From Eledone cirrhosa (lineage: Eukaryota), in the NCBI GenBank assembly GCA_964016885.1, contig OZ024756.1, positions 36,208,001 through 36,272,000 on the forward strand: 64,000 nucleotides of DNA, in the 5' to 3' direction. A model generated the notes under the pieces. That model was not told the DNA's origin. It did not search any database and was given only the letters and a program-made list of their open reading frames with translations. The translations under genes were made by a program, and so were the position numbers. Positions 7,155 to 49,899 of this stretch are shown here, piece after piece (within the stretch, counting starts at the first letter, position 1; every line of letters starts with the position of its first letter).

Positions 7155-7912
7155 CCATGCCAGCATATTAAATGGTGATGATACACACAGTGTATGTGAT
7201 GTCAGCCACAGTTATCAATAAACTCTAACCTATATTTTCAGACATTTTGGAGATCCTGTTCCTTTATATTGGGTTACGTTTTAATGACAGCATTTAAAGA
7301 TGAATACCTTGTGGAGTTGTGTCGTTTCCCGCCTCCTGATGGTGAGTATTACTTCAATATAGGGCTATATTAACTCCACATCAACTATGACCTTTATTTA
7401 ACCTTCCCACATCCTGATGATTACCTCAATATATTACTGGTAAATATCACAGTCATAACCCCTTCCTCGAGACAGCATTGAAAAAAAAAAGGTAACGGAA
7501 ATACCAAATGTAAAATTTCTGCGTCTTGTGTTGCACACATACTTGCACCGTCTGTTGTCCATTTATTTCTAGTCATAATTTTTTACATATTTATCTCTCT
7601 TCTTTTCAAAGGACAGCCATAAATTTTCCTGTCTTTTCTTTGTTTTGTTATCATCTCCCATGCATTTCACCAACAGACCAGGCATCTGTTGCAGAAATTA
7701 GCATCTCAATGCAACACACTACCTTAATGTACAAAACTGCACTGCAAGCAAGGTGGCTGATGAAGTAGAGATGTAATTGTCGTTCATCTTATATAACTGT
7801 GTGCATTTTTTGCTAACATTATACATATATATATACATATACAATATGTATATATATATGTGTATTTGGGTTCATATGTATTTATACATGTATAGATATG
7901 AGTCTCTCTCTC

Positions 7913-7943
<31 letters not shown>

Positions 7944-8016
7944 ATATATATATATATACTGAATACATGTGTATATGTATAAATAATTTAATCAATACTT
8001 CCTATTACACACACAA

Positions 8017-8069
<53 letters not shown>

Positions 8070-8632
8070 TCTGTGTGTATTAACACCATTGTTCTATGTC
8101 TGCAGTGAAAAGTGGCAGTTTTGTATATGATGCTGACCTGAATCTACCCAACTGGAAACCAAACTTGGTATGTCTTCTCATTTCTGATTCATCATCAACT
8201 CTCTCTTTTAGACAAAGAATTACCTATTTTTTTCTTCAAAGTAATTCTTTGTCTATTCTTTCCTCACATTTAGAATTTGATAAATAGCTCTGATTAAATT
8301 ATTATTTTAATTCTTCTGATTATTTTGTATTTGTTCAGTCATTGAGCAAAACTGGTCAAGGCAGGACACTACACACTCATATACTTGTGTATCTGTGTGT
8401 GTATTTTATTACTATATATATATATATATATATATATTTATACACACACACATATATGTAGGAGTTGTATTTAATTTGTTGAAATTTCGACAAACATAAA
8501 TGTTTATAACTGATATAGAGCACTCAACAAGCTACTGGAGTAAATATCTCAAGATTTGCTTGGTCGCCCTTGAAATATATATAATAAAATAAATATGGTT
8601 TTATAACTATAGTTTCCATTTATTATTATCTT

Positions 8633-8706
<74 letters not shown>

Positions 8707-8844
8707 ATAAGTTTATCCCGGGTTCAATCGGGGGTACCCACAGTAAGTAAGGTGGTACTCAATACAAAGCAGAGTATAAATATTTAATATGGATGATTTC
8801 TCCCGAATGAAACAGTTCTAGTCTTGTAGAAGCCTTTTCTATAT

Positions 8845-8908
<64 letters not shown>

Positions 8909-10016
8909 AGATCCTATTCCTTGGTATGTTTTAGGTATGATATACTATGGCCTTATAAAATAAATGTGTAAGTGACTGAGACACATGTACCCTTAGCATA
9001 ATTCTCAGGGAGGTTCAATTTGATAGTGTCTGACTAGGCTGCCCCTTTGAATTACAAGTACAACTCACTTTTGTCAGTTGTGTTGACTGGAGTAACATGA
9101 AATATAGTGTCATGCTCAAGGAATCAGATTCACTGCCTTACAATCCTGAATCAAACATGCTAACCACTAAACTATCTCCTTTCACACTACTGACAACAAT
9201 ACCCCTCTCAATAAAAAACTATTACAAACACCACGGACAAAAACACTACCACCATATCTATATGCAAATATAGGGTGTCCCAAAAAGATGTATACATACT
9301 TCATCAGCATTCTAATAAATATTGCCTGTTCAGGTAATCAAAGTGTGTACATTTTTGGGACACCCTGTATATGTACTCAATTCCTAGAGGGAACCTCATA
9401 TCGGCAACAATGCTATCGCACCAACACTACTAACACCACCACTACCAACACCACCACTGTATTTTAACATGGATTTTTATCCTAGACAAAACTCCATTCC
9501 ACCTCCATCACTGACAGTACCATCACCACCACCACCACCATCACTAAGACCACTACCATCACTGTCACACTGACAACACCACTACCACCACCATCACTGC
9601 CAACACTACCACCACCACCACCACCATCAACACCACTGTCAACATTACCTCAACACTATTGGCAACACTAGTACCACCACTAACACCAGCACCACTACCA
9701 TAGCACCACCAACAATAACACCATCACTGTCACACTGACAACACCACCACTACCACCACCATAGCACCACCAGCAATAACAACACCACTGCCAACACTAC
9801 CACCACCACCACTACCGTCACTGCCACACCACCACCACCACTATATAAATGTACTCTATTCCCAGAGAGAACTCAATACCCTCAGTTCTATTGGAGCCAA
9901 GTTACATTACCAAGATTATAGATTTGAACCACTGACTGTTAATGGAGACACTGCAACAAAGATGTTTGAACACAACAGGTGAACACTCTCTCTCTCTCTC
10001 TCTAGGTGTGTGTGGC

Positions 10017-10047
<31 letters not shown>

Positions 10048-10172
10048 ATGTATAGCTATATATTTATGTATGTGTGTATAGCTATATATTTATGTATGTG
10101 TGTATAGCTATATATTTATGTATGTGTGTGTGTATAGCTATATATTTATGTATGTGTGTGTGTATGTGTAGC

Positions 10173-10205
<33 letters not shown>

Positions 10206-13078
10206 ATGTGTAGCTATATATATAGATGTGTGTGTGTATGTGTAGCTATATATATATATGTGTATGTGTAGCTATATATATATGTGTGTGTAGCTATATA
10301 TGTGTAGCATTTATAGTCCTTTACTCTACTTTCCCATACAGCAAGATCTGCCCTTCTTTATTTCTTCCTCTTTTTCTCACTAGTTAATTTTGTTTTTATC
10401 TTTCTTTTTCATTTCTATAGTGTCTCCATTTTCTTTTTCTCTCTTTCAATGTAAACTTTTAATTATTTTACTGTCTTATTTCCTAATAAATTACATCTTA
10501 CATTATCTAAATACAATATGTCATGTGTTTTTAAGTCATGTGTTTGTAATAATTACCAAGAACATAATAAAATTAGACACTATATCTAACTCACCTGCTG
10601 TTTGGTAGAGTCACTAATTCGGTTTCTTATAGAAGTCGATTTAACAATTCAAGCTGTCAGTTGGGTTGCCTGCAATTAGAGCTTTTCACTTACATTTTCC
10701 CCAACAATCACAGAATGCAGTTGGTGAAGTTCTTTTTAACCTTAAATATAAAAATGATGGAAGTGTATAAAAACAAAACTACAACAGGAAAAAGAAACTT
10801 AAATTATCGATTATACTATCTACATAATGTTACTCTACCACAAAAAAAAACAATCTATTATGGAAATCTGAATTCTTTAATTAGATGAAAATGATTTTTC
10901 AGAAATTAGATTTCACATCATCATCATTGTTTTTACATCTATGTTTGTGTTTGTGTTGACAGTCATCTCAGCCAAACTGAAATTAAAACCTTATTCTAAA
11001 ATATAATTGTTTCTACTTTTGGCACAAGGCCAGCAATTACCCCAGTGCATTACTGGTACTTTATTTTATCGACCCCGTAAGGATGAAAGGCAAAGTTAAC
11101 CTCGGCGGGATTTGAACTCAGATCGTAAAGGGACGTAACTTTGCTGCAAAGCATAACCTTATTCTAAAATATAATATATCATGTGATTGGTTTTTCAGGT
11201 TCAAGCTACAACAGATTCCTAGTATTGCAGCCCAATCCAGTGCAGGAGACAGCATAAATGTGTATCGTATTGGTGATCATATTGACATCAGTAAAGGACC
11301 CATGATGGCCTCCACATCACATCTGGGTAGATTCTCACTTACTGCGGTATGTATTTCTTGTCACTAATCAATTTCTATCAAACCATGTGAAGTTGTATAG
11401 CCAAGTGGTTAGAGTGTTGGTCTCGGGATCGTAAGATTGTAGGTTTGATTCCTGGAACCTTGCAGTACATTGTTCTAATCCGATTGCTTTCAATGATAGG
11501 ACTGAGGCCCTTAACATTAAAACTCCTCCCGGTACATAGTGTAAAGTGGTTGGGGTTAGGAATTGTGTCCAGTCTTAGAAAACATGCTCCCGGTACTTAC
11601 TGCTTACATGCTTCCCGAAATATGCCTAAACTACACCTGATGTCCCCCTTCCATACACATGCACACATGTGTATATCATGACTCATGTATTGTTCATTCC
11701 TGACGTTTGTACATTACCCTATGTACTATACATACACTTTTGATGAGTTGTAGTGCACCTGAGCACTGTACACAATATTTTCATTATTACATTATTACAA
11801 AAAGGGTGTCCTGCCATAGATGATAAGGTGGTACTGCTACTAATAGAGTACTATAATTACTATAGTGTAGCTGTTGGTGATATAGTGGTACTACTATTAA
11901 TAGAGTTCTATAGTGGAGCTATAGGGGATATATACAGTATTATAGTGTAGCTGTAGAGGATATAGTGGTATTACTACTAATACAGTACTATAACTACTAC
12001 TACTACTGTAATGCAGTTATAGGTGATATAATACTATCACTACTATAACTACTATGGTGCAGTTGTAGGTGATATAGTCGTACTATTACTACAACAGTAT
12101 TATAACTACTTTCAGATTCATAATATTGACTGTCCTGATTATGGAAGCTTACAGAGAGTACAAGGCGTAGCTTTACCAAGTCAGTTCTGGGTAAGTCACT
12201 TTCTCTCTATTTTTCTTGTTTCATTGTAAACTGACCACACTGTCTTTCACATCATCATCATCACTATCATCATCATCATCATTATCACCATCACCATCAT
12301 GATCATCATCATCACTGATGGAGGCAGATGTGTGTGATGGTTAGAGGCAGGTGTGTGTGTACAATGGTTACTGGCAGGTGTGACTGATTGTTAGTGGCAG
12401 GTGTAATGATAGACCATCTTGTCTAACACTGTAGTGTTGGTCAGTGATACCTACTGTAGTATTGGTCAACTAAATCCTTCTGTCCTATTTCTAGCTCCAC
12501 CAGTGGACATTCAATATATTGGAGAAAAGGTCCCAGCAATTGGTAAGTTCAACTGTTTTACTACTGGTCAGTTATTGGTCAATCTGGTTCTTCTTCTTTT
12601 CTACTACTACGACTATTATAACCACTTATATGCTAATTTTATCTCATGACCCCGAATTATATCTCATTATGGTCCCTAATTATATATCTCTATGCCCCCT
12701 CTTTTTCACCAGACCACCTCAGTATGACCTCCTCTCTCTCACCACCACCACCACCTTGGTATGACCCCCCCTCCCTTCTCTCACCACACCACCTCAATAT
12801 GACCCCCCTCTCTCACCACCTTGGTATGACCCCCCCCTTTCTCACCTCCATACCACCTCAATATGCCCCCCCCCCCTCTCTCACAACACCACCTCAATAT
12901 GACCCCCTCTCTCACCACTACATCACACCACCACCATTAACCCTTTAATATTATCATTTGACTGTTTATATTTCAGAACCTGTGTAGTTACCCCAGCACC
13001 CAGAAAGAACTGGAGTCAGAGACAGCCAAACATCTACCAGAACCTCAACAACAACAAGACAGCCAGATGCTATTTTGA
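3625..13078 (+). CDS. MRPL39: Mitochondrial large ribosomal subunit protein mL39 (350 aa, 10 coding exons)
   Basis: Exons 3625-3688, 4582-4782, 5823-5962, 7242-7341, 8106-8167, 9866-9978, 11199-11346, 12116-12190, 12495-12542, 12977-13078; all introns GT-AG, total 1053 nt in frame. Motifs QNDLFDEEK, MNKGLSTPFNCAMH, VNGQLWDMHRPL, FWRSCS, SGSFVYD, YRIGDHIDISKGP and RVQGVALP match mL39. AATAAA at ~13490. Confidence 0.95.
5217..5345. mobile_element. Hairpin-forming Penelope-like remnant
   Basis: ~54-bp inverted arms (5217-5270 / 5291-5345) between (TA)n tracts; a one-armed relative lies at ~46050-46170. Confidence 0.55.
6146..6625 (-). mobile_element. Decayed mariner transposase fragment
   Basis: Frameshifted SAGKVTASV and DYLQKGHTIKGESYSNLLKQLQKAIKPKHP match the mariner catalytic-domain region. 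Confidence 0.8.
9271..9368. mobile_element. Tc1/mariner-type MITE
   Basis: TIRs AGGGTGTCCCAAAAA...TTTTTGGGACACCCTG flanked by TA; relative at ~47508-47587. Confidence 0.7.
11008..11154 (-). mobile_element. 5'-truncated SINE with 21-bp TSD
   Basis: Flanked by AACCTTATTCTAAAATATAAT at 10987-11007 and 11155-11175. Confidence 0.85.
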
Positions 13079-13164
13079 GGTTAACCCAGTCTACCCAATG
13101 ATGCAGTGGTACCACCATGTTGGCCCAGAGGTATCCCTATGTTGACTAAGGACACTGGTACTGC

Positions 13165-14977: not shown

Positions 14978-15400
14978 ATGCATTGTACTAAAAGGTAAGT
15001 GTTATGACATAACTCTGATTAATCCTTTAACCCTTTAGCATTTTAAACCAGCCGTATCTGGCCAGAATTCTCTCACCTTTCTGTTCAAACCAGCAGTAAC
15101 CAGTTGCTCATACTGACGTTATGGTATTGTTCTCAAAATTAATAACATCAAAATGTCATAGATTTGATATTATGTGAGAAAATAATGTAAGGTAAAGCAT
15201 TTACCACAAAAATACAATAGTAAAATATAGAGTAATGTAAATTCTAAAGGGTTAACGCCATACCATCTAAAACTCTGGTTCTCTATGGTAAAAAGCAGTT
15301 TATTTTTATATGAAGGTCTGCTGAGAAGTTCATAGGCTTACTATGAAGGATTGATGCTAGAGTTGTGAAATCTTGGATAGATTAATTTCAACTCTTGTAA

Positions 15401-15436
<36 letters not shown>

Positions 15437-15862
15437 GTTTATGTATATATATATGTGTGTGTGTGTATATATATATATGTGTGTGTGTATATATATATGT
15501 GTGTGTGTGTGTGTGTATATATATGTGTGTGTGTGTGTGTATATATATATGTGTGTGTATATCATTTCACGTCCGCTTTTTCCCTGCTTGCAAGGGTGGG
15601 ACGGGAACTGATGCTGGCTTCATTTCTACAGCTGGATGCCCTTGCTAACACCAACGTCATTTACAGTGAGTGCTGGGTGCTTTTTACAGTGGAATGATAG
15701 GGAACCCAGTCCCTATCATCTCATTTCTACAGCTGAGTAAACTGGAGCAATGTGAAATAAAGTGTCTTGCTCAAGGAAACAACACATCACCCGGTCTGAG
15801 AATTGAACTCACAACCTTTCGATTGCAAGCCCAATGCTCTAACCACTAAGCCATGTGCCTCC

Positions 15863-15893
<31 letters not shown>

Positions 15894-17976
15894 TGTATGT
15901 GTTTGTGTTTGTGTGTGTGGCACAACGTATCTTTTCTATCCAACTCATGCAAACATGGAAAATTGGATGTAAAATGATGATGATTTGTGAATTACAGGGG
16001 AAAGTTATCGGTACTGTCCATTGGTGTATTGGTAGCTATGATACTCATCTGTTACTTCTACCTGATCCAAAAGTCAAAATTCCACTTTGCTGTCTCCAGT
16101 TCCAAATTGGTAGAATATAACCATGCTGCTATCACCAGCGATTCTTCAAGGTGTTCCAAACTTGGAATGTAAGTCACTCTTTCTTATTAAAATCATGCCA
16201 TCTTCCTTTACTATTAATTTCATCTTTACTATATATCTTTAATTTCTACATTATTCTATGTACTATACATGCACCCTTTGATGAGTTGTAGTGCACCTGA
16301 GCACTGTACACAATAATTTTCATTATTTATGGTAGATTGGCAGAATCGGTAGAGGGTCGGACGCCATGCTTTGCAGCAAAGAGTTACAACCTTTTATGGT
16401 CTGAGTTCAAATCCCGCCGAGGTTAGCTTTGCCTTTCATCCTTACGGGGTCGATAAAATAAAGTACCAGTAATACACTGGAATAATTGCTGGCCTTGTGC
16501 CAAAAGTAGAAACAATTATTTATTATAATATTTAAATCTTTACAATATTTATATCTTTGCAATATTCACATCTTTACACAATATTTACATCTTTTATAAT
16601 ATGTACACCTTTTACAGTATTCACATCATTACAGTATTCACATCATTATAATATTCACATCACTTATAATATTTACATCATCACCATCATCATAATCATC
16701 ATAATCATCATTTTTACATTCATTTTCCATTCTTGTGTGAGTTGACAAGTCCTCTCAATACAACCTCCCTTCACTTGTCTCTGTCTTTTGTCATCTTCCT
16801 TGTGAGGTACAGCATTATATTTTGAGGTTTCTGCTTTCATCATTTCTGTCGCCATGTCTTCCATGGTTTTCCCACTTTATATATGTTTCTTTCTTTGCTT
16901 TCGTGGGTTAAATGAGTCTTCTCCAGCAGGGTGTCATGCCACTTGTCACTTTCCTTTGTCATTTTGTTTGGAAGGCACAACATTCTGAAAACAGCTCTCA
17001 TCACATCTGTTGGGGGGTCTTCCTTGGCTTGTGAGGCTCAACATTCTGAGATCAGCTCTCAGTTTATCTGTTAGGACCTTTTTATGGCTTGTGAGGCTCA
17101 ACATTCTGAGAACAGCTCTCACTACATCTGCCTGGGTCATCCTTGGCTTGGGAAGCTTAACATTCTTAGAACAGCTCTCAGTGCATCTGTCAGGACCTTT
17201 TTATTGCTTGCGATACTGACCGTTTTGAGAACAGCTCACACTGTATCTGTTAGGGTCATCCTTGGCTTGGGAAGCTCAACATTCTCAGAACAGCTCTCAG
17301 TGCATCTGTCAGGACCTTTTTATGGCTTGTGATACTGACTGTTTTGAGAACAGCTCACACTGTATCTGTTAGGGTCATCCTTGGCTTGGGAAGCTCAACA
17401 TTCTCAGTGCATCTGTCAGGACCTTTTTATGGCTTGTGATACTCAACATTGTGAGATCATCTCTCATTATATCTATACGATATTAACATATATTCAATAT
17501 TCACATCTTTACAACATTCAGAGTTTTACACTATTCACATTTTTTAAATTTTCTTCTACTGGTTTCTGTCATTAGACGGAGGCCAAGCTGGGGCACCAGC
17601 ACCATCTGTACAATATACACTAATGTTGATGTATGTATGTTTTAAATAGGTCATTCCTGAAGGAGAAGAATGGAAGTACAGTTGATTCCATCATTGTCAC
17701 TTTGGTCTGTATGGAGCTCGACCAACCAATGTCCACTGGACTTGGTGCCAGTTTAATTATGAATATCTATGACAGGTCAGTGGAACACTCTCTCCCTCCT
17801 CTCCTCCTCCTACACTACACCCCGTCCGTCCCCAGATAGTAATAATGATGATAATAATGATGATGTTGTTATTGCTGTTGTAGTAAATCTCAGAAGACTG
17901 TCATCATAGATGCCTCTGGTAGATCACCATACCATGTGACTAACCTGACTAAGTCATACCTGACAGGTAACTAAAC

Positions 17977-18037
<61 letters not shown>

Positions 18038-18215
18038 ACAAAGGAATTGTGGTAAGGAACCAGATGGACCATAACGCACCAGAGTACTCAATACTTAGAG
18101 TAGTAGAGTGGGAAATAGGAAAAAATATGACCCCAACAGCAGAGCTCAAGCCGTTTCGATGGCTATTCTGGACAAGTCCAGCAGCTTGAGCTCTGCCGTC
18201 GGGGTCATATTTTTT

Positions 18216-18258
<43 letters not shown>

Positions 18259-21200
18259 TTGTCACTTTGTTACTTCTTCATGTTATAACTGTTGTTGCTG
18301 TTGTTGTTCCTGTCCATGTTATAACTGTTGTTGTTATTGTTGTTGTTGTTGCTGCTACTGTTGTTGTTATTGTTGATATTATTATTGCTGTTGATGTTAT
18401 TGTTGTTGCTGCTGCTGTTGTTGTTATTGTTGATATTATTATTGCTGTTGATGTTGTTATTGTTGTTGCTGTTGCTGTTGTTGTTAATGTTATTATTATT
18501 GTTGTTGCTGTTGTTGTTATTGTTGATGTTATTGCTGTTGATATTGTTACTATCATTGTCGTTGCTATTGTTATTGCTGTTGTTGTTTATTGCAGGTCCT
18601 TCATCTGTGACTGTACCTGGCCAGTTGTATGGTCTGTGGCAGGCACACCAGATGTATGGTTCATTACCATGGAAACAGCTGTTTGATCCTGTGATACACC
18701 TAGCAACACATGGTTTCAATGTCTCCCACTCTCTGGCTAACACCCTAAATGAAATGGAATCTGAAATTAAAGAGCGATCCTTTCTCAGGTCAGTGAAATA
18801 AGGATCAGAGGTCAGATCCTATTGTTTTTAACTTTTATGTTGTTGATTATCTACAGCCGAGATATAATCACTTCATTAGCTTATATATAACTATATATTA
18901 ACAGAGAGCTATATATCACTATATATTAACAGAGAGCTATATATAACTATATATAACTATATATTAACAGAGAGCTATATATATAACTATATATTAACAG
19001 AGTTATATATCACTATATATTAACAGAGAGCTATATATCACTATATATTAACAGAGAGCTATATATAACTATATATAACTATATATTAACAGAGAGCTAT
19101 ATATATAACTATATATTAACAGAGAGCTATATATATAACTATATATTAACAGAGAGCTATATATCACTATATATTAACAGAGAGCTATATATCACTATAT
19201 ATTAACAGAGAGCTATATATTAATAAGACTACTGGACATGTATATCAAGAAGGAGACCACATGAAACATCCAAGACTAGCAAAAACATTGAGCGTGATTT
19301 CTGATGAAGGATACCTTGCTGTATATAATGGATCCCTGTCTCACGCCATTATTGAAGATCTTAGAGAAGCTGGAGAAGGTGGGTTATTGAACTGTCAATT
19401 AATTTATCTAGTTCACTCATGTGTATGAATACAGGTGCGTGTATGAGTATGACTGTGTAATTATATATATAAAAAATTTAATATAGAAATGGCTTCTACA
19501 AGACTAGAACTGTTTCATTCAAAAGAAATCGTCATGATCGAATGAAATGGTTCTAGTCCTGTAGAAGCCATTTCATTATACATACATTATACATACACAC
19601 ATATATATATATATATATATATACACACCGAGGTATCCACAGTAAGTTGTGGGGTCTATTCTGCATGAAGAACTCGATGTAATCCATATGTTGAAAATGT
19701 TGTAGGTTCAGATAAATCCCGGAAAACAATAAAACATTAAAAGGAAACAGAGTCATGATATAAGTTAAACCAATGAAATAAAAAATCAAGTCATTAGAGA
19801 TATACTTCACTGCTTTAGAAACGATCGTAAAGCAGTGAAGTATATCTCTAATGACTTGATTTTTTATTTCATTGTTTTAACTTTATATATATTATCTTAA
19901 TATATATGATGATGATGATGATGATATATCTAATATATATATTTGTGAAATATATATATATAATGTAAACAGTCAATGATGATGTCCCTTCCTTTTATCT
20001 TACAAACAAAATTGGTTTATACTTCAGAAAATAACCTTAGTTGTTGTTACTGTTCTTGCTATTGCTACTGTTGTTGTTGTTGTGGCCCTTAATTTTCAGA
20101 CTCCCTGATGACCTTGAGTGACCTCACCTCTTACAATGTGAAGTTTCCAGCCCCTTTAAAAACCAGACTGACCAATGGTGACCTCCTATTGGTGGCGCCA
20201 CCACCTTCAAGTGGAGTATTGGTGCAACTGATACTCAATATTTTGGACAGTAAGATCTTTTGTCATCTTATCACCCATCTTGTCATTTGTCACCTTGACC
20301 CTATCATTTGTCATCTTGTCATCAGTCATGTATCTCTTACCCAGACCACATCACCACCACCACCACTACCACCACCACCATCACAACCCGGCATCACCAC
20401 CACCACCACCACCACTGTCACTACACAATCATCACCACCACAACAAGCACCTTCACCACCAGTACCACCACCACCACTACCATACCAGAAGCACTGTTAC
20501 TATGACATTAATCCCCATCCCCACCACCACCACTGTAACATTAATCCCCACCACCACCACCACAACATTAATCCCCACCACCACCACCACTGTTACACTA
20601 ATCCCCACCACCACCACCACCACCACTGTTACACTAATCCCCACCACCACCACCACCACCACCACTGTTACACTAATCCCCACCACCACCACCACCACTG
20701 TTACACTAATCCCCATCACCACCACCACCACTGTTACACTAATCCCCACCACCACCACCACCACCACCACCACCACCACCACCACCACTGTTACACTAAT
20801 CCCCACCACCACCACCACCATCTTCTATTACAGTGTACCAGTTCAGTCCCAACCAACGCAGCAACTACAACCTGTTTGCCACAGCACTACACAGAATAAT
20901 TGAAACATTCAAGTTTGCCTACAGCTTCCATTCCAGGCTGGAGGATCCTGACTTTCATAGTGTAACACAGGTGAGTCACACTGGAGGGTGTAACACAGGG
21001 CAGTGACACTAGAGGGTGTAACACAGGGCAGTGACATTTGAGGGTGTAACACAGGGGAGTGACACTGGAGGGTGTAACACAGGGCAGTGACATTTGAGGG
21101 TGTAACACAGATAGGTTACACTGCATTGTGTAACACAGGGGAGTAACTGTTGAGGATGTAAAACCAGTGAATGTGGAGATGATGAGGGTGTTGGAGGTGA

Positions 21201-24127
21201 TGATGATGGGTATGATGATGATGATGATGATGATGATTATTGTGATGATGGTGATGATGAAGTCAATGTCAATGAAAGACACTGAGCCATCCATCCATGA
21301 CACTCCAGATGATATAAACTGATTTATGTTTTATTTCTCCGTTCTCCTTCAAAGCTGCTCACCAATTTAACGTCTGCAGAGTGGGCCAGAAGGCTTAAAT
21401 CACAGATCAGTGACCACAAGACTTACAAAAGTGATCATTATAACCCTGGGGTCCTGAATGAGGAAGGTTTAGGGACCACCCACCTGAATGGTATTGGCCC
21501 TGATGGTATCGCTGTAGCAGTGTCAAGCTCACTTAACCATCGGTAGGTTACTTACACTTGTATCATACACACACAGTATACTACACAGACACACATACAC
21601 ACACAGTATACTATACATGCACACATATACCACAGACACACACACAGTATACTACACAGGCACACACAGTATACTACACATACACACATATACCACAGTA
21701 TACTACACATACACACATATACCACAGTATACTACACATACACACATATACCACAGTATACTACACAGACACACACATATGTAGCACTGTTCCATACACA
21801 CATAATATACCAGTGTACTACACATACAACACACAAAATATCAACACCAACAACACCAACAACAGTAGCAACACCAACAACAGTAACAACACCAACAACA
21901 GTAACAACACCAACAACAGTAGCAACAGTAACAACACCAACAACAGTAACAACACCAACAACAGTAGCAACACCAACAACAGTAGCAACACCAATAACAA
22001 TATCAACATCAACAGCTACAGTAACAACACCAATACCAACATCAACAGTAACAAGAACAACAACAGCAGTAACAACATTACCATCAACAACAACAACAAC
22101 AACAGCAGTATTCAGACAGCCACATGTAAATTGTCTTACTGTTTAGGTTTGGTGCCAAGATTCTGGGACGAAGGACTGGAATTTTGTTCAACAATGGAAT
22201 GGCAGCATTCTCAAGGTCGACCAGACTTGACCTCAAGTCCATACCACACCAATATCTCCCTAATTTTGTGGCACCACACAAATCTCCGATGTCGTATGCA
22301 GCACCAATTATTATGACTGACCAATCAGGTAACACCAAACTGGTTATTGGGGCCTCCGGAGGAAAAAAGATTATTTCAGCTCTCTCCTACGTAAGTTGCT
22401 TCTCGTTCTCTTTCTCTCTTTTCGTTTTATCCCTTTCTTTCTTTCTTTCTTTCTGGTCAACTGCGAACTACTGGGACATCAGTTCAAGCTCCACTCTTGT
22501 AGCTATATCACACTATATCACACTGTTGTAGCTATATCACACTATATCACACTGTTGTAGCTATATCACACTATATCACACTGTTGTAGCTATATCACAC
22601 TATATCACACTGTTGTAGCTATATCACACTATATCACACTGTTGTAGCTATATCACACTGTTGTAGCTATATCACACTATATCACACTGTTGTAGCTATA
22701 TCACACTGTTGTAGCTATATCACACTATATCACACTGTTGTAGCTATATCACACTGTTGTAGCTATATCACACTATATCACACTGTTGTAGCTATATCAC
22801 ACTGTTGTAGCTATATCACACTATATCACACTGTTGTAGCTATATCACACTATATCACACTGTTGTAGCTATATCACACTGTATCACACTGTTGTAGCTA
22901 TATCACACTGTTGTAGCTATATCACACTATATCACACTGTTGTAGCTATATCACACTATATCACACTGTTGTAGCTATATCACACTGTTGTAGCTATATC
23001 ACACTATATCACACTGTTGTAGCTATATCACACTGTTGTAGCTATATCACACTATATCACACTGTTGTAGCTATATCACACTGTATCACACTGTTGTAGC
23101 TATATCACACTGTATCACACTGTTGTAGCTATATCACACTGTTGTAGCTATATCACACTATATCACACTGTTGTAGCTATATCACACTATATCACACTGT
23201 TGTAGCTATATCACACTATATCACACTGTTGTAGCTATATCACACTATATCACACTGTTGTAGCTATATCACACTGTTGTAGCTATATCACACTGTTGTA
23301 GCTATATCACACTGTTGTAGCTATATCACACTATATCACACTGTTGTAGCTATATCACACTATATCACACTGTTGTAGCTATATCACACTATATCACACT
23401 GTTGTAGCTATATCACACTATATCACACTGTTGTAGCTATATCACACTATATCACACTGTTGTAGCTATATCACACTGTATCACACTGTTGTAGCTATAT
23501 CACACTGTTGTAGCTATATCACACTGTATCACACTGTATCACACTGTTGTAGCTATATCACACTGTTGTAGCTATATCACACTGTATCACACTGTTGTAG
23601 CTATATCACACTGTTGTAGCTATATCACACTATATCACACTGTTGTAGCTATATCACACTATATCACACTGTTGTAGCTATATCACAAGTGTACCTTTCC
23701 GTATCTTCATTACAATAACAACAACTATTATTACTACTACTACTACTACTACTACTACTACAATATATAACATATGTAACATATATATATATCATCATCA
23801 TCATCATCATTTTACGTCCGCTTTTCCCTGCTTGCAAGGGTGGAACGGGAACTGATTCTGGCCTGATTTCTACAGCTGGATGCCCTTCCTAACACCAACC
23901 TCATTTTACAGTGAGTGCTGGGTGCTTTTTTTGCCGTGGCACCTCCACGACCACTTTGCAGTGGAATGATATGGACCCCAGTCCCTATCATCTAATTTCT
24001 ACAGCTGAGTAAACTGGAGCAACGTGAAATAAAGTGTCTTGCTCAAGGAAACAACACATCACCCGGTCCGATCTCACAACCTTTCGATTGTAAGGCCAAT
24101 GCTCTAACCACTAAGCCATGTGCCTCC

Positions 24128-24186
<59 letters not shown>

Positions 24187-25747
24187 TAAATATATATATA
24201 CACAAAAACAATATATATATATAAATATTTATACACACATAGGTGATGAACAATTTCATGTGGTTCAATGACACCATCAAAGAAGCTATTGATGCCCTCA
24301 GAGTTCACAACCAGATTCTTCCAAGAGAAACCAATTCAGAAAACTATTTGCCAAGGGTAAGTAAACTACAATATTTAATTCCTCCTCGTTAATTTTGTTA
24401 ATTAGAGATATTTGTAATTGGAAAGGAGTGAGGCTTAACTCTACGTTTCTCAGTTGAAATCCATCTGAGGTCAACTTTGTCTTTCATCCTTCCAGGGTTG
24501 ATAAAATAAAGTACCAGTAATGTACTGCAGTCTATGTAATTGACTGTTCCTCTCCTTTTGGATTGCTGGACTTGTGTCTAAAGTAGAAATTATTATTAGT
24601 TCAAATCCTGGTGCTGTTAACTTTGTCTTTCATACTTCCAGGGTTGATAAAATAAAATGTCAGTCACATAATGGAGTCAATAACTTACTCCTGTTGAGGT
24701 TAACTTTACCTTTCATCCTTACAGGGGTCGATAAAATAAAGTACCAGTAATGCACTGGGGTCGATTTAATCGACTTTCCCCTCCCACCCAAAATTGTTGC
24801 CCTTGTGCCTATATTAGAAACCATTATTATTATTATAATAAAGTACCAGTAATGTACTGGGTAATTGATGGCCTTGTGCCAAAAGTAGAAACAATTATTA
24901 TTATTATAATTGTGGATTGTCAGTATCGGTAGAGGGTCGGACGCCATGCTTTGCAGCATAGAGTTACGGCCCTTTATGGTCTGAGTTCAAATCCCGCCGA
25001 GGCTAACTTTGCCTTTCATCCTTACGGGGTCGATAGAATAAAGTACCAGTAACGCACTGGGATAATTGCTGGCCTTGTGCCAAAAGTAGAAACAATTATT
25101 ATTATTATTGTTGTTCTTTGAGTCTCAGTCATTGATGTTGAAATGAATATCAAGCCGCTACCTGCAGCCTCAGATATTCAGGACGTATCGGAGGGTTCTT
25201 GCTGTTCCCAGCAAGCATGTTTTTTGAAGTGTTCCAAAAAATGGGGCTGAACTAATCTTCTTTAACCATCCTTGGAAACTCTTTGAGATAGTAGCTAGTG
25301 TTCCTATGATAATCGGGATGACCTTGATCTCATGGCAGTTCCAAATCCCTTTTAACTCCCACTTTAAATCCTTATTATTGTTATTATTATGGCAGTATCG
25401 GTAAAGGGTTGGATGCCATGCTTTCCAGCATAGTTACGTCCCTTTACGATCTGAATTCAAATCCCACCGAGGTTGACTTTGCCTTTCATCCTTACGGGGT
25501 CGATACAATAAAGTACCAGTAATGCACTGGGTAATTGCTGGCCTTGTGGCTAAAGTAGAAACAATTATTATTATTATTATTATTTTCTATGTGTTTATTT
25601 CAGAAGGTGATTGAGAAGCTGATGAAACTCGGACACAACATCACAAGTTATGGACGTCTCTCACTTGTTCAGGGAATAGTCCAGAACAATGGCAGTCTCC
25701 AAGTTAACATTGATTATAGAAGTGGAGTAGATCCAGCAGGGTTCTAG
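14978..25747 (+). CDS. Gamma-glutamyltransferase (glutathione hydrolase) family protein with divergent substrate pocket (578 aa, 12 coding exons)
   Basis: Exons 14978-14994, 15998-16168, 17650-17775, 17884-17966, 18596-18788, 19209-19378, 20100-20249, 20834-20970, 21355-21542, 22147-22390, 24243-24356, 25604-25747; 1737 nt in frame. N-terminal signal-anchor, HAAITSDSSRCS, SVTVPGQLYG..AHQMYGSLPW, PPPSSG, HRIIETFKFAY, G|TTHL (catalytic Thr, 21475-21477), GILFNN, IGASGG, RVHNQILP, C-terminal DPAGF*. The short first exon is the least certain. Confidence 0.93.
15561..15862 (-). mobile_element. tRNA-headed SINE, second family
   Basis: Minus strand: GGAGGCACATGGCTTAGTGGTTAGAGC head, CCTTGAGCAAGACACTT central domain, GGGCATCCAGCTGTAGAAA, 3' GCGGACGT; other copies at 23791-24128 (-) and 45110-45290 (+). 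Confidence 0.8.
16331..16518 (+). mobile_element. tRNA-derived SINE (most abundant family here)
   Basis: A box TGGCAGAATCGG, B box GTTCAAATCC, GCCTTTCATCCTTACGGGGTCGATAAAATAAAGTACCAG central domain (Meta-domain-like), (ATT)n tail. Confidence 0.85.
16975..17470. repeat. ~58-60-bp degenerate tandem repeat (GGT intron 2)
   Basis: About 8 units of CTCAACATTCTGAGAACAGCTCTCA...TGGCTTG, with two alternating subtypes. Confidence 0.85.
18115..18220. mobile_element. Hairpin-forming Penelope-like remnant
   Basis: ~37-bp inverted arms ATAGGAAAAAATATGACCCC...GAGCTCAAGC, inserted between (TA)n tracts. Confidence 0.55.
18890..19220 (+). repeat. Tandem array of the GGT exon-6 splice acceptor (11 copies)
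   Basis: Unit ATATATTAACAG|AGAGCTATATAT(C/A)ACT, 26-38 bp; the last copy (AG at 19207-19208) continues into the coding exon. Confidence 0.9.
19486..19574. mobile_element. Hairpin-forming Penelope-like remnant
   Basis: ~35-bp inverted arms; same family as 8710-8840 and 63104-63300. Confidence 0.55.
19771..19874. mobile_element. Perfect 47-bp inverted repeat (Penelope-like remnant)
   Basis: Arms 19771-19817 and 19828-19874; loop GAAACGATCG. Confidence 0.6.
20960..21145 (+). repeat. 28-bp tandem array of the GGT exon-8 donor (7 copies)
   Basis: GTGTAACACAG recurs at 20960, 20988, 21016, 21044, 21072, 21100 and 21128; only the first is followed by GT. Confidence 0.88.
22492..23687. repeat. 1.2-kb compound minisatellite (GGT intron 10)
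   Basis: Interspersed 19-bp CTGTTGTAGCTATATCACA and 10-bp CT(A/G)TATCACA units. Confidence 0.95.
23791..24128 (-). mobile_element. tRNA-headed SINE, second family, (GAT)n tail
   Basis: Colinear with 15561-15862. Confidence 0.8.
24460..25110 (+). mobile_element. Tandem cluster of SINE copies and fragments
   Basis: At least four repeats of the TTTCATCCTT..GGG(T/G)(T/C)GATAAAATAAA domain separated by (ATT)n tails; another copy at 25390-25565. Confidence 0.8.
25116..25373 (-). mobile_element. R4/Dong-like non-LTR retrotransposon 3' end (restriction-like endonuclease C-terminus)
   Basis: Minus strand open frame KDLKWELKGIWNCHEIKVIPIIIGTLATISKSFQGWLKKISSAPFFGTLQKTCLLGTARTLRYVLNI*; flanked by (TAA/ATT)n. 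Confidence 0.75.
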
Positions 25748-49699: not shown

Positions 49700-49899
49700 N
49701 NNNNNNNNNNNNNNNNNNNNNNNNNNNNNNNNNNNNNNNNNNNNNNNNNNNNNNNNNNNNNNNNNNNNNNNNNNNNNNNNNNNNNNNNNNNNNNNNNNNN
49801 NNNNNNNNNNNNNNNNNNNNNNNNNNNNNNNNNNNNNNNNNNNNNNNNNNNNNNNNNNNNNNNNNNNNNNNNNNNNNNNNNNNNNNNNNNNNNNNNNNN
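49700..49899. other. Assembly gap (200 N)
   Basis: Run of n; order and distance across it are not sequence-supported. Confidence 0.99.

What the first reader, a model, noticed from the sequence alone, without database searches (positions are those of the whole stretch)
17884..22390. Intact GGT-family enzyme with a remodelled gamma-glutamyl pocket
Seen, compared with human GGT1 from memory: INAREVAP becomes IDASGRSP (R107S, E108G; 17909-17923), NNEMDDF becomes NNGMAAF (E420G, D422A, D423A; 22190-22210), PLSSM becomes PMSYA (S452Y; 22289-22300), T399 becomes S, and GIGGG becomes GLGAS. Retained are the nucleophile Thr (G|TTH), N401, oxyanion GG (GASGG), the signal-anchor and a full open frame. 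Established: R107, E420, D423, S451 and S452 bind the glutamyl alpha-amino and carboxyl groups, and an ASGR-type motif occurs in bacterial YwrD/HpxW-like GGT homologues. Inference: this is an autoprocessing extracellular Ntn-amidohydrolase or transacylase with a non-glutathione substrate, or a pseudoenzyme. GGT-family proteins are known venom components in centipedes and parasitoid wasps, so salivary expression is worth testing.
Basis: partly seen in the sequence, partly recalled or inferred. Interest (0 to 1): 0.75.

Follow-up and report, generated by a model that had tools for sequence, protein, structure and literature searches.

The report
Octopus GGT copy with rebuilt pocket
This is an intact octopus copy of the glutathione-cutting enzyme GGT in which the residues that grip glutamate have been replaced while the rest of the fold is kept, the same way in five octopod species, so it likely cuts some other, still unknown, amide at the cell surface, or has become a non-catalytic surface protein.

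Summary
Observation confirmed. The gene has 12 coding exons (14978-25747, +), all GT-AG, and gives an open 578-aa type II GGT-family protein. Orthologues in three Octopus species (76-77% identical) and Argonauta hians (63%) share the odd pocket, so it is no young pseudogene or assembly error. Of 56 family-conserved sites only 4 are lost across the clade; 3 bind the glutamyl head (R107, D423, S452; Fisher p=0.0014). The same genome holds two GGT genes with normal pockets; one shares all 10 internal introns. The clade lies among animal GGT1-type proteins on a long stem, so the bacterial 'ASGR' likeness is convergent at most. T399S and GLGAS are not diagnostic. New: the Argonauta model has Ala at the nucleophile and first oxyanion Gly. 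No support for venom: the one GGT in an O. vulgaris salivary proteome is another paralogue. Best reading: self-cleaving ectoenzyme for a non-glutamyl amide (0.5); pseudoenzyme (0.3). Pocket-altered GGT paralogues recur in other animals, so this is a new variant of a known kind; tissue and activity are untested.

The parts
14978..14994 (+). coding exon 1 (start codon, MHCTK)
   Evidence: same N-terminus in four orthologues
15998..16168 (+). coding exon 2; signal-anchor helix, residues 11-29 (16011-16067), after a basic KRGK stretch
   Evidence: hydropathy 2.68 over 19 residues; helix 5-32 in the orthologue's model
17650..17775 (+). coding exon 3; GLGAS at 17738-17752 (GIGGS in Octopus; last Gly to Ser is clade-wide)
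17884..17966 (+). coding exon 4; R107-equivalent Ser116 (17915-17917) and E108-equivalent Gly117 (17918-17920)
18596..18788 (+). coding exon 5
19209..19378 (+). coding exon 6; its acceptor is the last of 10 copies in an intronic minisatellite
20100..20249 (+). coding exon 7
20834..20970 (+). coding exon 8
21355..21542 (+). coding exon 9; predicted self-cleavage site G389|T390 (nucleophile codon 21475-21477), T399-equivalent Ser408 (21529-21531), N401-equivalent Asn410 (21535-21537)
22147..22390 (+). coding exon 10; NNGMAAF (E420G, D422A, D423A; 22190-22210), lid loop, PMSYA (S451 kept, S452Y; 22286-22300), oxyanion Gly-Gly (22358-22363)
24243..24356 (+). coding exon 11
25604..25747 (+). coding exon 12 with the conserved D-x-R and stop codon

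Best explanation
It is an intact octopod duplicate of an animal GGT1-type gene that has lost the residues gripping glutamate's amino and carboxyl groups and likely works as a self-cleaving, membrane-anchored ectoenzyme that would hydrolyse a different amide whose acyl part has no charged amino-acid head. Steps: (1, shown) type II anchor, 9 N-glycosylation sequons, full GGT fold; (2, inferred from family chemistry) the precursor cleaves itself at G389|T390 and frees Thr390 as N-terminal nucleophile, with Ser408, Asn410 and Gly483-Gly484 still in place; (3, shown) five charged residues at and beside the donor pocket floor (R107, E108, E420, D422, D423) are now Ser, Gly, Gly, Ala, Ala and S452 is Tyr; (4, inferred) the pocket is now uncharged and cannot hold glutathione well, but would take a neutral acyl group, giving acyl-enzyme formation and release to water rather than transpeptidation; (5, shown as sequence, inferred as cause) two paralogues with normal pockets remain in the genome and would keep the glutathione job. 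The substrate is not identified.
For: Open 578-aa frame with 11 GT-AG introns. Same pocket in O. vulgaris, O. sinensis, O. bimaculoides and Argonauta hians. Constraint: window and O. vulgaris proteins agree at 54 of 56 family-conserved sites but 245 of 341 variable sites (Fisher p=1.6e-5). Targeted change: 4 of 56 conserved sites lost clade-wide, 3 of them among the 5 head-binding residues in that set (p=0.0014); the C22 paralogue has changed 1 of 56. Thr nucleophile, His two residues on, N401, both glycines kept in 4 of 5 clade members. AlphaFold model of the O. vulgaris orthologue pLDDT 92.7, pTM 0.91; best Foldseek hits are GGT precursors and human GGT1 heavy chain at rmsd 2.0. Roles of R107, E420, D423, S451, S452, N401: PMC6949936, passage. 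Precedent that changing the D423-equivalent redirects specificity: E. coli D433N and B. subtilis D445N gain glutaryl-7-ACA acylase activity; D445A loses transpeptidation and keeps 40% hydrolysis; T399-equivalent to Ser does not block processing in H. pylori (PMC8062742, sections 8, 10, 13). Normal-pocket paralogues on C22 and C1.
Against: The Argonauta hians model has Ala at the nucleophile and at the first oxyanion Gly; Thr-to-Ala blocks processing and activity in E. coli, H. pylori and B. licheniformis GGT, so in that lineage the protein persists, if the model is right, without catalysis. The new pocket residues are not significantly more conserved than the rest of the protein (7 of 7 invariant in four rows, p about 0.07-0.11; 5 of 7 in five rows, p=0.29), so a new ligand is not shown by conservation. 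Thr390 could be kept for maturation alone. No pocket geometry was measured, no substrate, no expression and no activity data.
Confidence: 0.5

Rival explanations
1. It is a pseudoenzyme: a folded, glycosylated GGT-shaped surface protein kept for a binding, structural or regulatory role; the pocket decayed soon after duplication and the Thr is kept only where self-cleavage helps maturation.
For: Argonauta model lacks the nucleophile and one oxyanion Gly yet keeps NNGMAAF, SY and an open frame. Pocket changes are mostly to small residues (Ser, Gly, Ala), as loss would give. Pocket invariance is not significant. Precedent: an Aphidius ervi venom gamma-GT with two activity-reducing mutations, suggested not to be functional (PMC4035087, abstract and passages; also PMC7257214, passage). 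Nucleophile loss shows in up to 8 of 203 comparison rows, some of them doubtful alignments.
Against: All catalytic residues are kept in 4 of 5 clade members, across 77% identity. The Argonauta sequence is one unverified gene model that also lacks exon 3 (about 42 aa), has 9 of 49 conserved sites changed against 4-6 of 56 in the others, and an odd composition, so it may be a decaying copy or a faulty model. S452Y is fixed in all five.
Confidence: 0.3
2. It is still a gamma-glutamyl hydrolase, weak or with shifted preference (hydrolysis only, or another gamma-glutamyl conjugate).
For: Single pocket changes are tolerated in bacterial GGTs: B. licheniformis R109S keeps 85% activity, S460A and S461A raise it, B. 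subtilis D445A keeps 40% hydrolysis; extremophile GGTs carry Ser for the Arg (PMC8062742; PMC6769717 abstract). N401 and S451 are kept.
Against: Four of six head ligands are lost together (R107, E420, D423, S452); both R107 and D423 are lost in only 2 of 203 comparison rows. Two normal paralogues exist in the genome. No combined mutant of this kind was seen in what I read.
Confidence: 0.13
3. It was recruited into octopus saliva or venom.
For: GGTs are abundant venom proteins in aphid parasitoids, one with active-site changes; several hits are named after centipede scoloptoxin SSD14.
Against: In the O. vulgaris posterior salivary gland proteome supplement (stored cut) the only GGT found is A0A0L8FZH4 / XP_014785501.1 (624 aa, one peptide), not the clade's A0A0L8HNC2 / XP_014771229.1. 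A 2026 cephalopod venom-expression preprint has no mention of glutamyl, glutathione or GGT in its main text. Single copy, no tandem array; membrane anchor.
Confidence: 0.05
4. It is a young pseudogene or an assembly artefact.
For: None beyond the lost pocket residues.
Against: Open frame; four orthologues with the same motifs; constraint on conserved sites.
Confidence: 0.02

Closest known systems
Human GGT1 (glutathione hydrolase 1, MEROPS T03; PDB 4GDX, 4Z9O)
   Same: Type II anchor, two-chain Ntn fold (model vs heavy chain rmsd 2.0, 38% identity), nucleophile Thr, N401, S451, G473-G474, lid loop.
   Different: R107S, E108G, E420G, D422A, D423A, S452Y; T399S (common elsewhere).
Own-genome GGT1-type paralogue on C22 (and a second, more distant paralogue on C1)
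   Same: C22 shares all 10 internal intron phases, 9 at the same alignment column and 1 two columns off beside a gap; about 34% identity.
   Different: C22 and C1 keep R107, E108, E/Q420, D422, D423, S451, S452. Whether C22 is the direct parent is unresolved in the trees.
Class IV cephalosporin acylases and D433N/D445N GGT mutants
   Same: GGT fold with the D423-equivalent Asp replaced, acting on an acyl group without an alpha-amino group (PMC8062742 section 13).
   Different: They keep the carboxylate-binding side; here the Arg and one Ser are gone too. Bacterial, no kinship.
Bacterial/archaeal GGT-like branch (Geobacillus and Picrophilus GGTs, B. halodurans 2NLZ, T. acidophilum 2I3O, HpxW 5HFT)
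   Same: Ser in place of the conserved Arg and changed Ser-Ser pair in extremophile GGTs; same fold.
   Different: 19-24% identity against 38% to human GGT1; the octopod clade lies among animal sequences.
Active-site-mutated venom GGT2 of Aphidius ervi and Lysiphlebus fabarum; other pocket-altered animal paralogues (Owenia x3, Tubulanus, Ixodes, Uranotaenia, Aphidius gifuensis)
   Same: Lineage-specific GGT1-type duplicates with changed donor-pocket residues beside normal copies.
   Different: Different substitutions; none has the S/G/G/A/A/Y set. No function was found for any of them in what I read.

Membership tests
GGT family (PF01019, MEROPS T03) | Profile match over the curated cut-off along the whole domain | tested here: met
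   O. vulgaris orthologue 451 bits vs cut-off 27, profile 2-510 of 512; window exons over cut-off
GGT family (PF01019, MEROPS T03) | [quoted passage not shown] | tested here: met
   Model of the orthologue pLDDT 92.7; Foldseek TM 0.92 (target-normalised) to human GGT1 heavy chain; the window's own spliced protein was not folded
GGT family (PF01019, MEROPS T03) | Thr nucleophile at the start of the light chain and Gly-Gly oxyanion hole | tested here: met
   Thr390, Gly483-484 in window and three Octopus; Ala, Ala-Gly in the Argonauta model
GGT family (PF01019, MEROPS T03) | Autocatalytic cleavage into heavy and light chain | not testable with these tools
   Needs recombinant protein or tissue proteomics
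Canonical glutathione hydrolase (GGT1/GGT5-like, EC 3.4.19.13) | Glutamyl-head ligands R107, E/Q420, D423, S451, S452, N401 | tested here: not met
   Four of six replaced
Canonical glutathione hydrolase (GGT1/GGT5-like, EC 3.4.19.13) | Activity on glutathione or gamma-Glu-pNA | not testable with these tools
   No assay known to me; searches found no paper on this protein
Animal GGT1-type lineage | Groups with animal GGT1-type proteins and shares their intron pattern | tested here: met
   Inside the animal group in two IQ-TREE quick trees, sister unresolved; 10 of 10 introns shared with C22
Bacterial YwrD/HpxW-like GGT homologues | Closer kinship to that branch than to animal GGTs | tested here: not met
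   E 1e-19 to 1e-18 to 2NLZ/5HFT/2I3O against 1e-64 to human heavy chain; those proteins were not rows in my trees
Venom GGTs (centipede SSD14, parasitoid gamma-GT) | Enriched in venom gland and present in secretion | tested here: inconclusive
   Not found in one cut proteome supplement where another GGT was; no RNA holder listed
Pseudoenzyme GGT | Loss of nucleophile or shown lack of activity | tested here: inconclusive
   Nucleophile kept in 4 of 5, lost in the Argonauta model

The most novel reading that the evidence does not exclude
Octopods evolved, from a GGT1 duplicate, an animal cell-surface Ntn-amidohydrolase with a new non-glutamyl substrate (a neutral acyl amide such as a signalling or dietary amide), by a one-time rebuilding of the pocket floor before argonauts and octopuses split, and argonauts then switched it off; it would be a natural counterpart of the engineered GGT-to-acylase conversions.
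Probability: 0.35. Interest if true: 0.7.

Novelty: new variant of a known kind. Interest (0 to 1): 0.5.

Why it matters
Databases label these proteins 'glutathione hydrolase 1-like', which the pocket contradicts. Animal GGTs with known substrates act on gamma-glutamyl compounds, and the substrates of human GGT2, GGT6 and GGT7 are still open (PMC9140057, passage). A conserved, single-copy octopod paralogue with a cleanly rebuilt pocket, a normal sister gene in the same genome and a natural nucleophile-null orthologue is a compact system for asking how GGT folds gain new substrates or become pseudoenzymes. The importance is moderate: such paralogues recur in other animals (9 of 189 ungapped comparison rows lose three or more of six ligands), and no tissue or phenotype ties this one to cephalopod biology yet.

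Tried and rejected
Expression: no RNA holder listed for exon 10; no evidence either way. Supplements: Paroctopus gland paper held only 393 characters; O. sinensis 18-tissue data file held 100 characters; ink and skin-mucus proteome files were cut when stored and gave no clade accession or motif; blue-ringed octopus genome supplements gave no hit in 9 files; bioRxiv supplements are closed. Unseen parts may bear on the venom and tissue questions. dN/dS: not run, no orthologous coding DNA was available; a protein-level constraint test was used instead. Squid/cuttlefish orthologues: none in three word-indexed searches or among the best 150 of 15,237 representative hits (next single-domain hits at most 40% identical); these searches also failed to list the Octopus normal paralogues, so absence outside octopods is not shown. 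Mytilus GGT (P0128) as parent paralogue through a shared one-residue insertion: the regex test did not resolve it and the trees left it open. FastTree joined the clade to a pocket-altered mosquito protein (0.98); taken as long-branch attraction, not tested by AU. The careful IQ-TREE run did not finish; quick trees only. HpxW structure paper not held; a recalled PMC id was a different paper. Short-motif PDB searches did not show YwrD/HpxW alignments. VIA wide fold search not obtained. ESM Atlas gave only GGT clusters. Earlier findings: nothing by sequence or words.
Full report
Setting. The window is G000:C17:36208001-36272000 of a 3.0-Gb, 1796-contig genome. Its closest protein relatives are from Octopus and Argonauta, so the animal is an octopod (inference). 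The gene lies between an mL39-like gene upstream and a Dor1/COG8-like gene downstream, all on the + strand.

Gene model. Reading the DNA and checking borders by script gave 12 coding exons from 14978 to 25747, all introns GT-AG, 1737 nt, 578 aa, one terminal stop. A search of the genome with the O. vulgaris orthologue hit 10 of these exons in the window at 64-81% identity. The protein has a hydrophobic helix at 11-29 after a basic stretch and 9 N-glycosylation sequons: a type II ectoprotein like GGT1. Contigs of three runs of one sample match exon 10 without a difference, but may be the assembly's source.

Observation. Across 119 non-clade rows and 145 further rows, D423 is Asp in 118 of 118 and 130 of 137 ungapped rows, R107 is Arg in 116 of 118 and 134 of 142, and Tyr never stands at S452. 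In contrast Ser at T399 is common (30 of 119, 49 of 145), E420 and D422 vary, and GLGAS is private to this species. These rows are the best hits to the orthologue (120 listed of 141; 150 of 15,237), not a random sample of the family.

Orthologues. O. vulgaris (CAI9737915.1), O. sinensis (XP_036366893.1) and O. bimaculoides (XP_014771229.1) proteins are 76-77% identical to the window protein, Argonauta hians (GAB1603247.1) 63%. All carry S/T at R107, G/A at E108, NNGMAAF and Ser-Tyr. Databases name them glutathione hydrolase 1(-like). RefSeq lists two isoforms in two species, which usually rests on RNA evidence (my knowledge of that pipeline; not checked). No orthologue outside octopods came up, but the searches were not sensitive enough to prove absence.

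Origin. The genome search found three GGT loci: C17 (this gene), C22 and C1; counts are lower bounds. C22 and C1 have complete pockets. C22 shares all 10 internal intron phases with this gene, 9 at the same column. In IQ-TREE quick trees of 48 and 24 rows the octopod proteins form one clade (SH-aLRT 100) on a stem of 1.09-1.26 changes per column inside the animal GGT1-type group; the sister group is unresolved. A 214-row FastTree joined it to a pocket-altered mosquito protein, probably by long-branch attraction. Nothing points to transfer from bacteria: sequence E-values to 2NLZ, 5HFT and 2I3O are about 1e-19 to 1e-18 against 1e-64 to human GGT1. Ser for the Arg does occur in extremophile GGTs (PMC8062742 section 11), so that likeness is convergent.

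Constraint and targeting. Window and O. vulgaris proteins agree at 54 of 56 sites that are at least 90% conserved in 203 comparison rows, and at 245 of 341 variable sites (p=1.6e-5): the fold is under purifying selection. Only 4 of the 56 sites are lost in the whole clade: the last Gly of GIGGG, R107, D423 and S452; 3 of the 4 are among the 5 head-binding residues in the set (p=0.0014). The C22 paralogue has changed 1 of 56. So the change is aimed at the glutamyl-head pocket, not general decay. Against a new ligand: the replacement residues are not significantly more invariant than background (p 0.07-0.29). The O. vulgaris protein folds as a complete GGT (pLDDT 92.7, pTM 0.91; only the lid loop is uncertain).

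The Argonauta exception. Its model reads G-A-T-H at the cleavage site and A-G at the oxyanion pair. Thr-to-Ala blocks processing and activity in three bacterial GGTs (PMC8062742 Table 3). The model also lacks exon 3, changes 9 of 49 conserved sites and has an odd composition. It is either evidence that the protein's job does not need catalysis, or a copy in decay, or a faulty model; I could not reach its DNA.

Mechanism. Shown: anchor, fold, retained Thr390/Ser408/Asn410/Gly483-484, and replacement of five charged residues by Ser, Gly, Gly, Ala, Ala plus S452Y. Inferred: self-cleavage at G389|T390, acylation of Thr390 by an amide whose acyl part is neutral, release to water. The inference leans on mutants in which the D423-equivalent change removed transpeptidation and opened glutaryl-acylase activity, and on T398S leaving H. 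pylori processing intact with about fivefold lower activity. The same table warns that single changes can be mild (R109S 85% activity; S460A/S461A higher), which keeps a weak gamma-glutamyl hydrolase alive. I put a new-substrate hydrolase at 0.5, a pseudoenzyme at 0.3, a residual glutamyl hydrolase at 0.13.

Venom. Parasitoid venom GGTs, including an active-site-mutated one, are documented (PMC4035087, PMC7257214; abstract and passages). For octopus, the posterior salivary gland proteome supplement of PMC7693380 (stored cut) lists one GGT, A0A0L8FZH4 (624 aa, one peptide), not the clade member. A 2026 cephalopod venom preprint does not mention GGT in its main text. No RNA run was listed. The venom idea has no support here, but tissue is unknown.

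Novelty. Five searches pairing octopus or cephalopod with GGT terms found no paper on this gene; subscription journals are mostly not held. Pocket-altered GGT paralogues recur: 9 of 189 ungapped comparison rows lose three or more of six ligands (Owenia, Tubulanus, Ixodes, Uranotaenia, Aphidius and unnamed ones), though only 2 of 203 lose both R107 and D423 and none has this set. Verdict: real, conserved, undescribed as far as searched; a new variant of a known kind; interest 0.5.

Papers seen: PMC6949936, PMC4568574, PMC4035087, PMC7257214, PMC9140057 (passages); PMC8062742 (passages, section 11, first part of section 13); PMC6769717 (abstract); PMC7693380, PMC10142993, PMC10138644, PMC12607849, PMC9699675, PMC7656900 (supplement searches only); bioRxiv 10.64898/2026.04.09.716377 (term search of main text).

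Noticed in passing
window 18878-19220: Intronic 28-30 bp minisatellite made of copies of exon 6's own splice acceptor: 10 copies of the acceptor plus first exon bases (18905 to 19209), only the last in frame with the orthologues.
   Followed up: partly
window 20956-21144: 28 bp minisatellite that repeats the last bases of exon 8; 7 copies, only the first is followed by GT. Two splice borders of one gene have seeded tandem repeats.
   Followed up: partly
P0007 (Argonauta hians, GAB1603247.1): Nucleophile Thr to Ala is a change that one A-to-G step can give from the window's ACC codon, the same change A-to-I editing makes; whether this codon is edited in octopods is untested speculation.
   Followed up: no
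P0033-P0035 (Owenia fusiformis), P0188 (Tubulanus), P0216 (Ixodes), P0226 (Uranotaenia), P0263 (Aphidius gifuensis), P0232, P0209: Other animal GGT paralogues with three to six of six glutamyl-head ligands changed, each differently; three Owenia copies on one contig form a long-stem clade.
   Followed up: partly
window about 7240-13080 (+): Mitochondrial ribosomal protein mL39-like gene ending about 1.9 kb before the GGT-like start codon (one exon tested; other exons read by eye).
   Followed up: partly
window from 29830 (+): Dor1/COG8-like gene starts about 4 kb downstream (exon 32768-32890 matches PF04124).
   Followed up: partly
G000:C22:14203000-14239500 (-) and G000:C1:303405000-303432000 (+): Two GGT paralogues with normal pockets; C1 has other intron positions and Asn-Gly at the oxyanion pair (TNGS), and branches deep in the tree.
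   Followed up: partly
P0002 (O. sinensis isoform X2): Annotated isoform lacks 55 residues of the heavy-chain C-terminal helices but keeps the frame.
   Followed up: no
window 22492-23687: 1.2 kb array of a 19/29/48 bp unit in intron 10; assembly gap of 200 N at 49700-49899.
   Followed up: no
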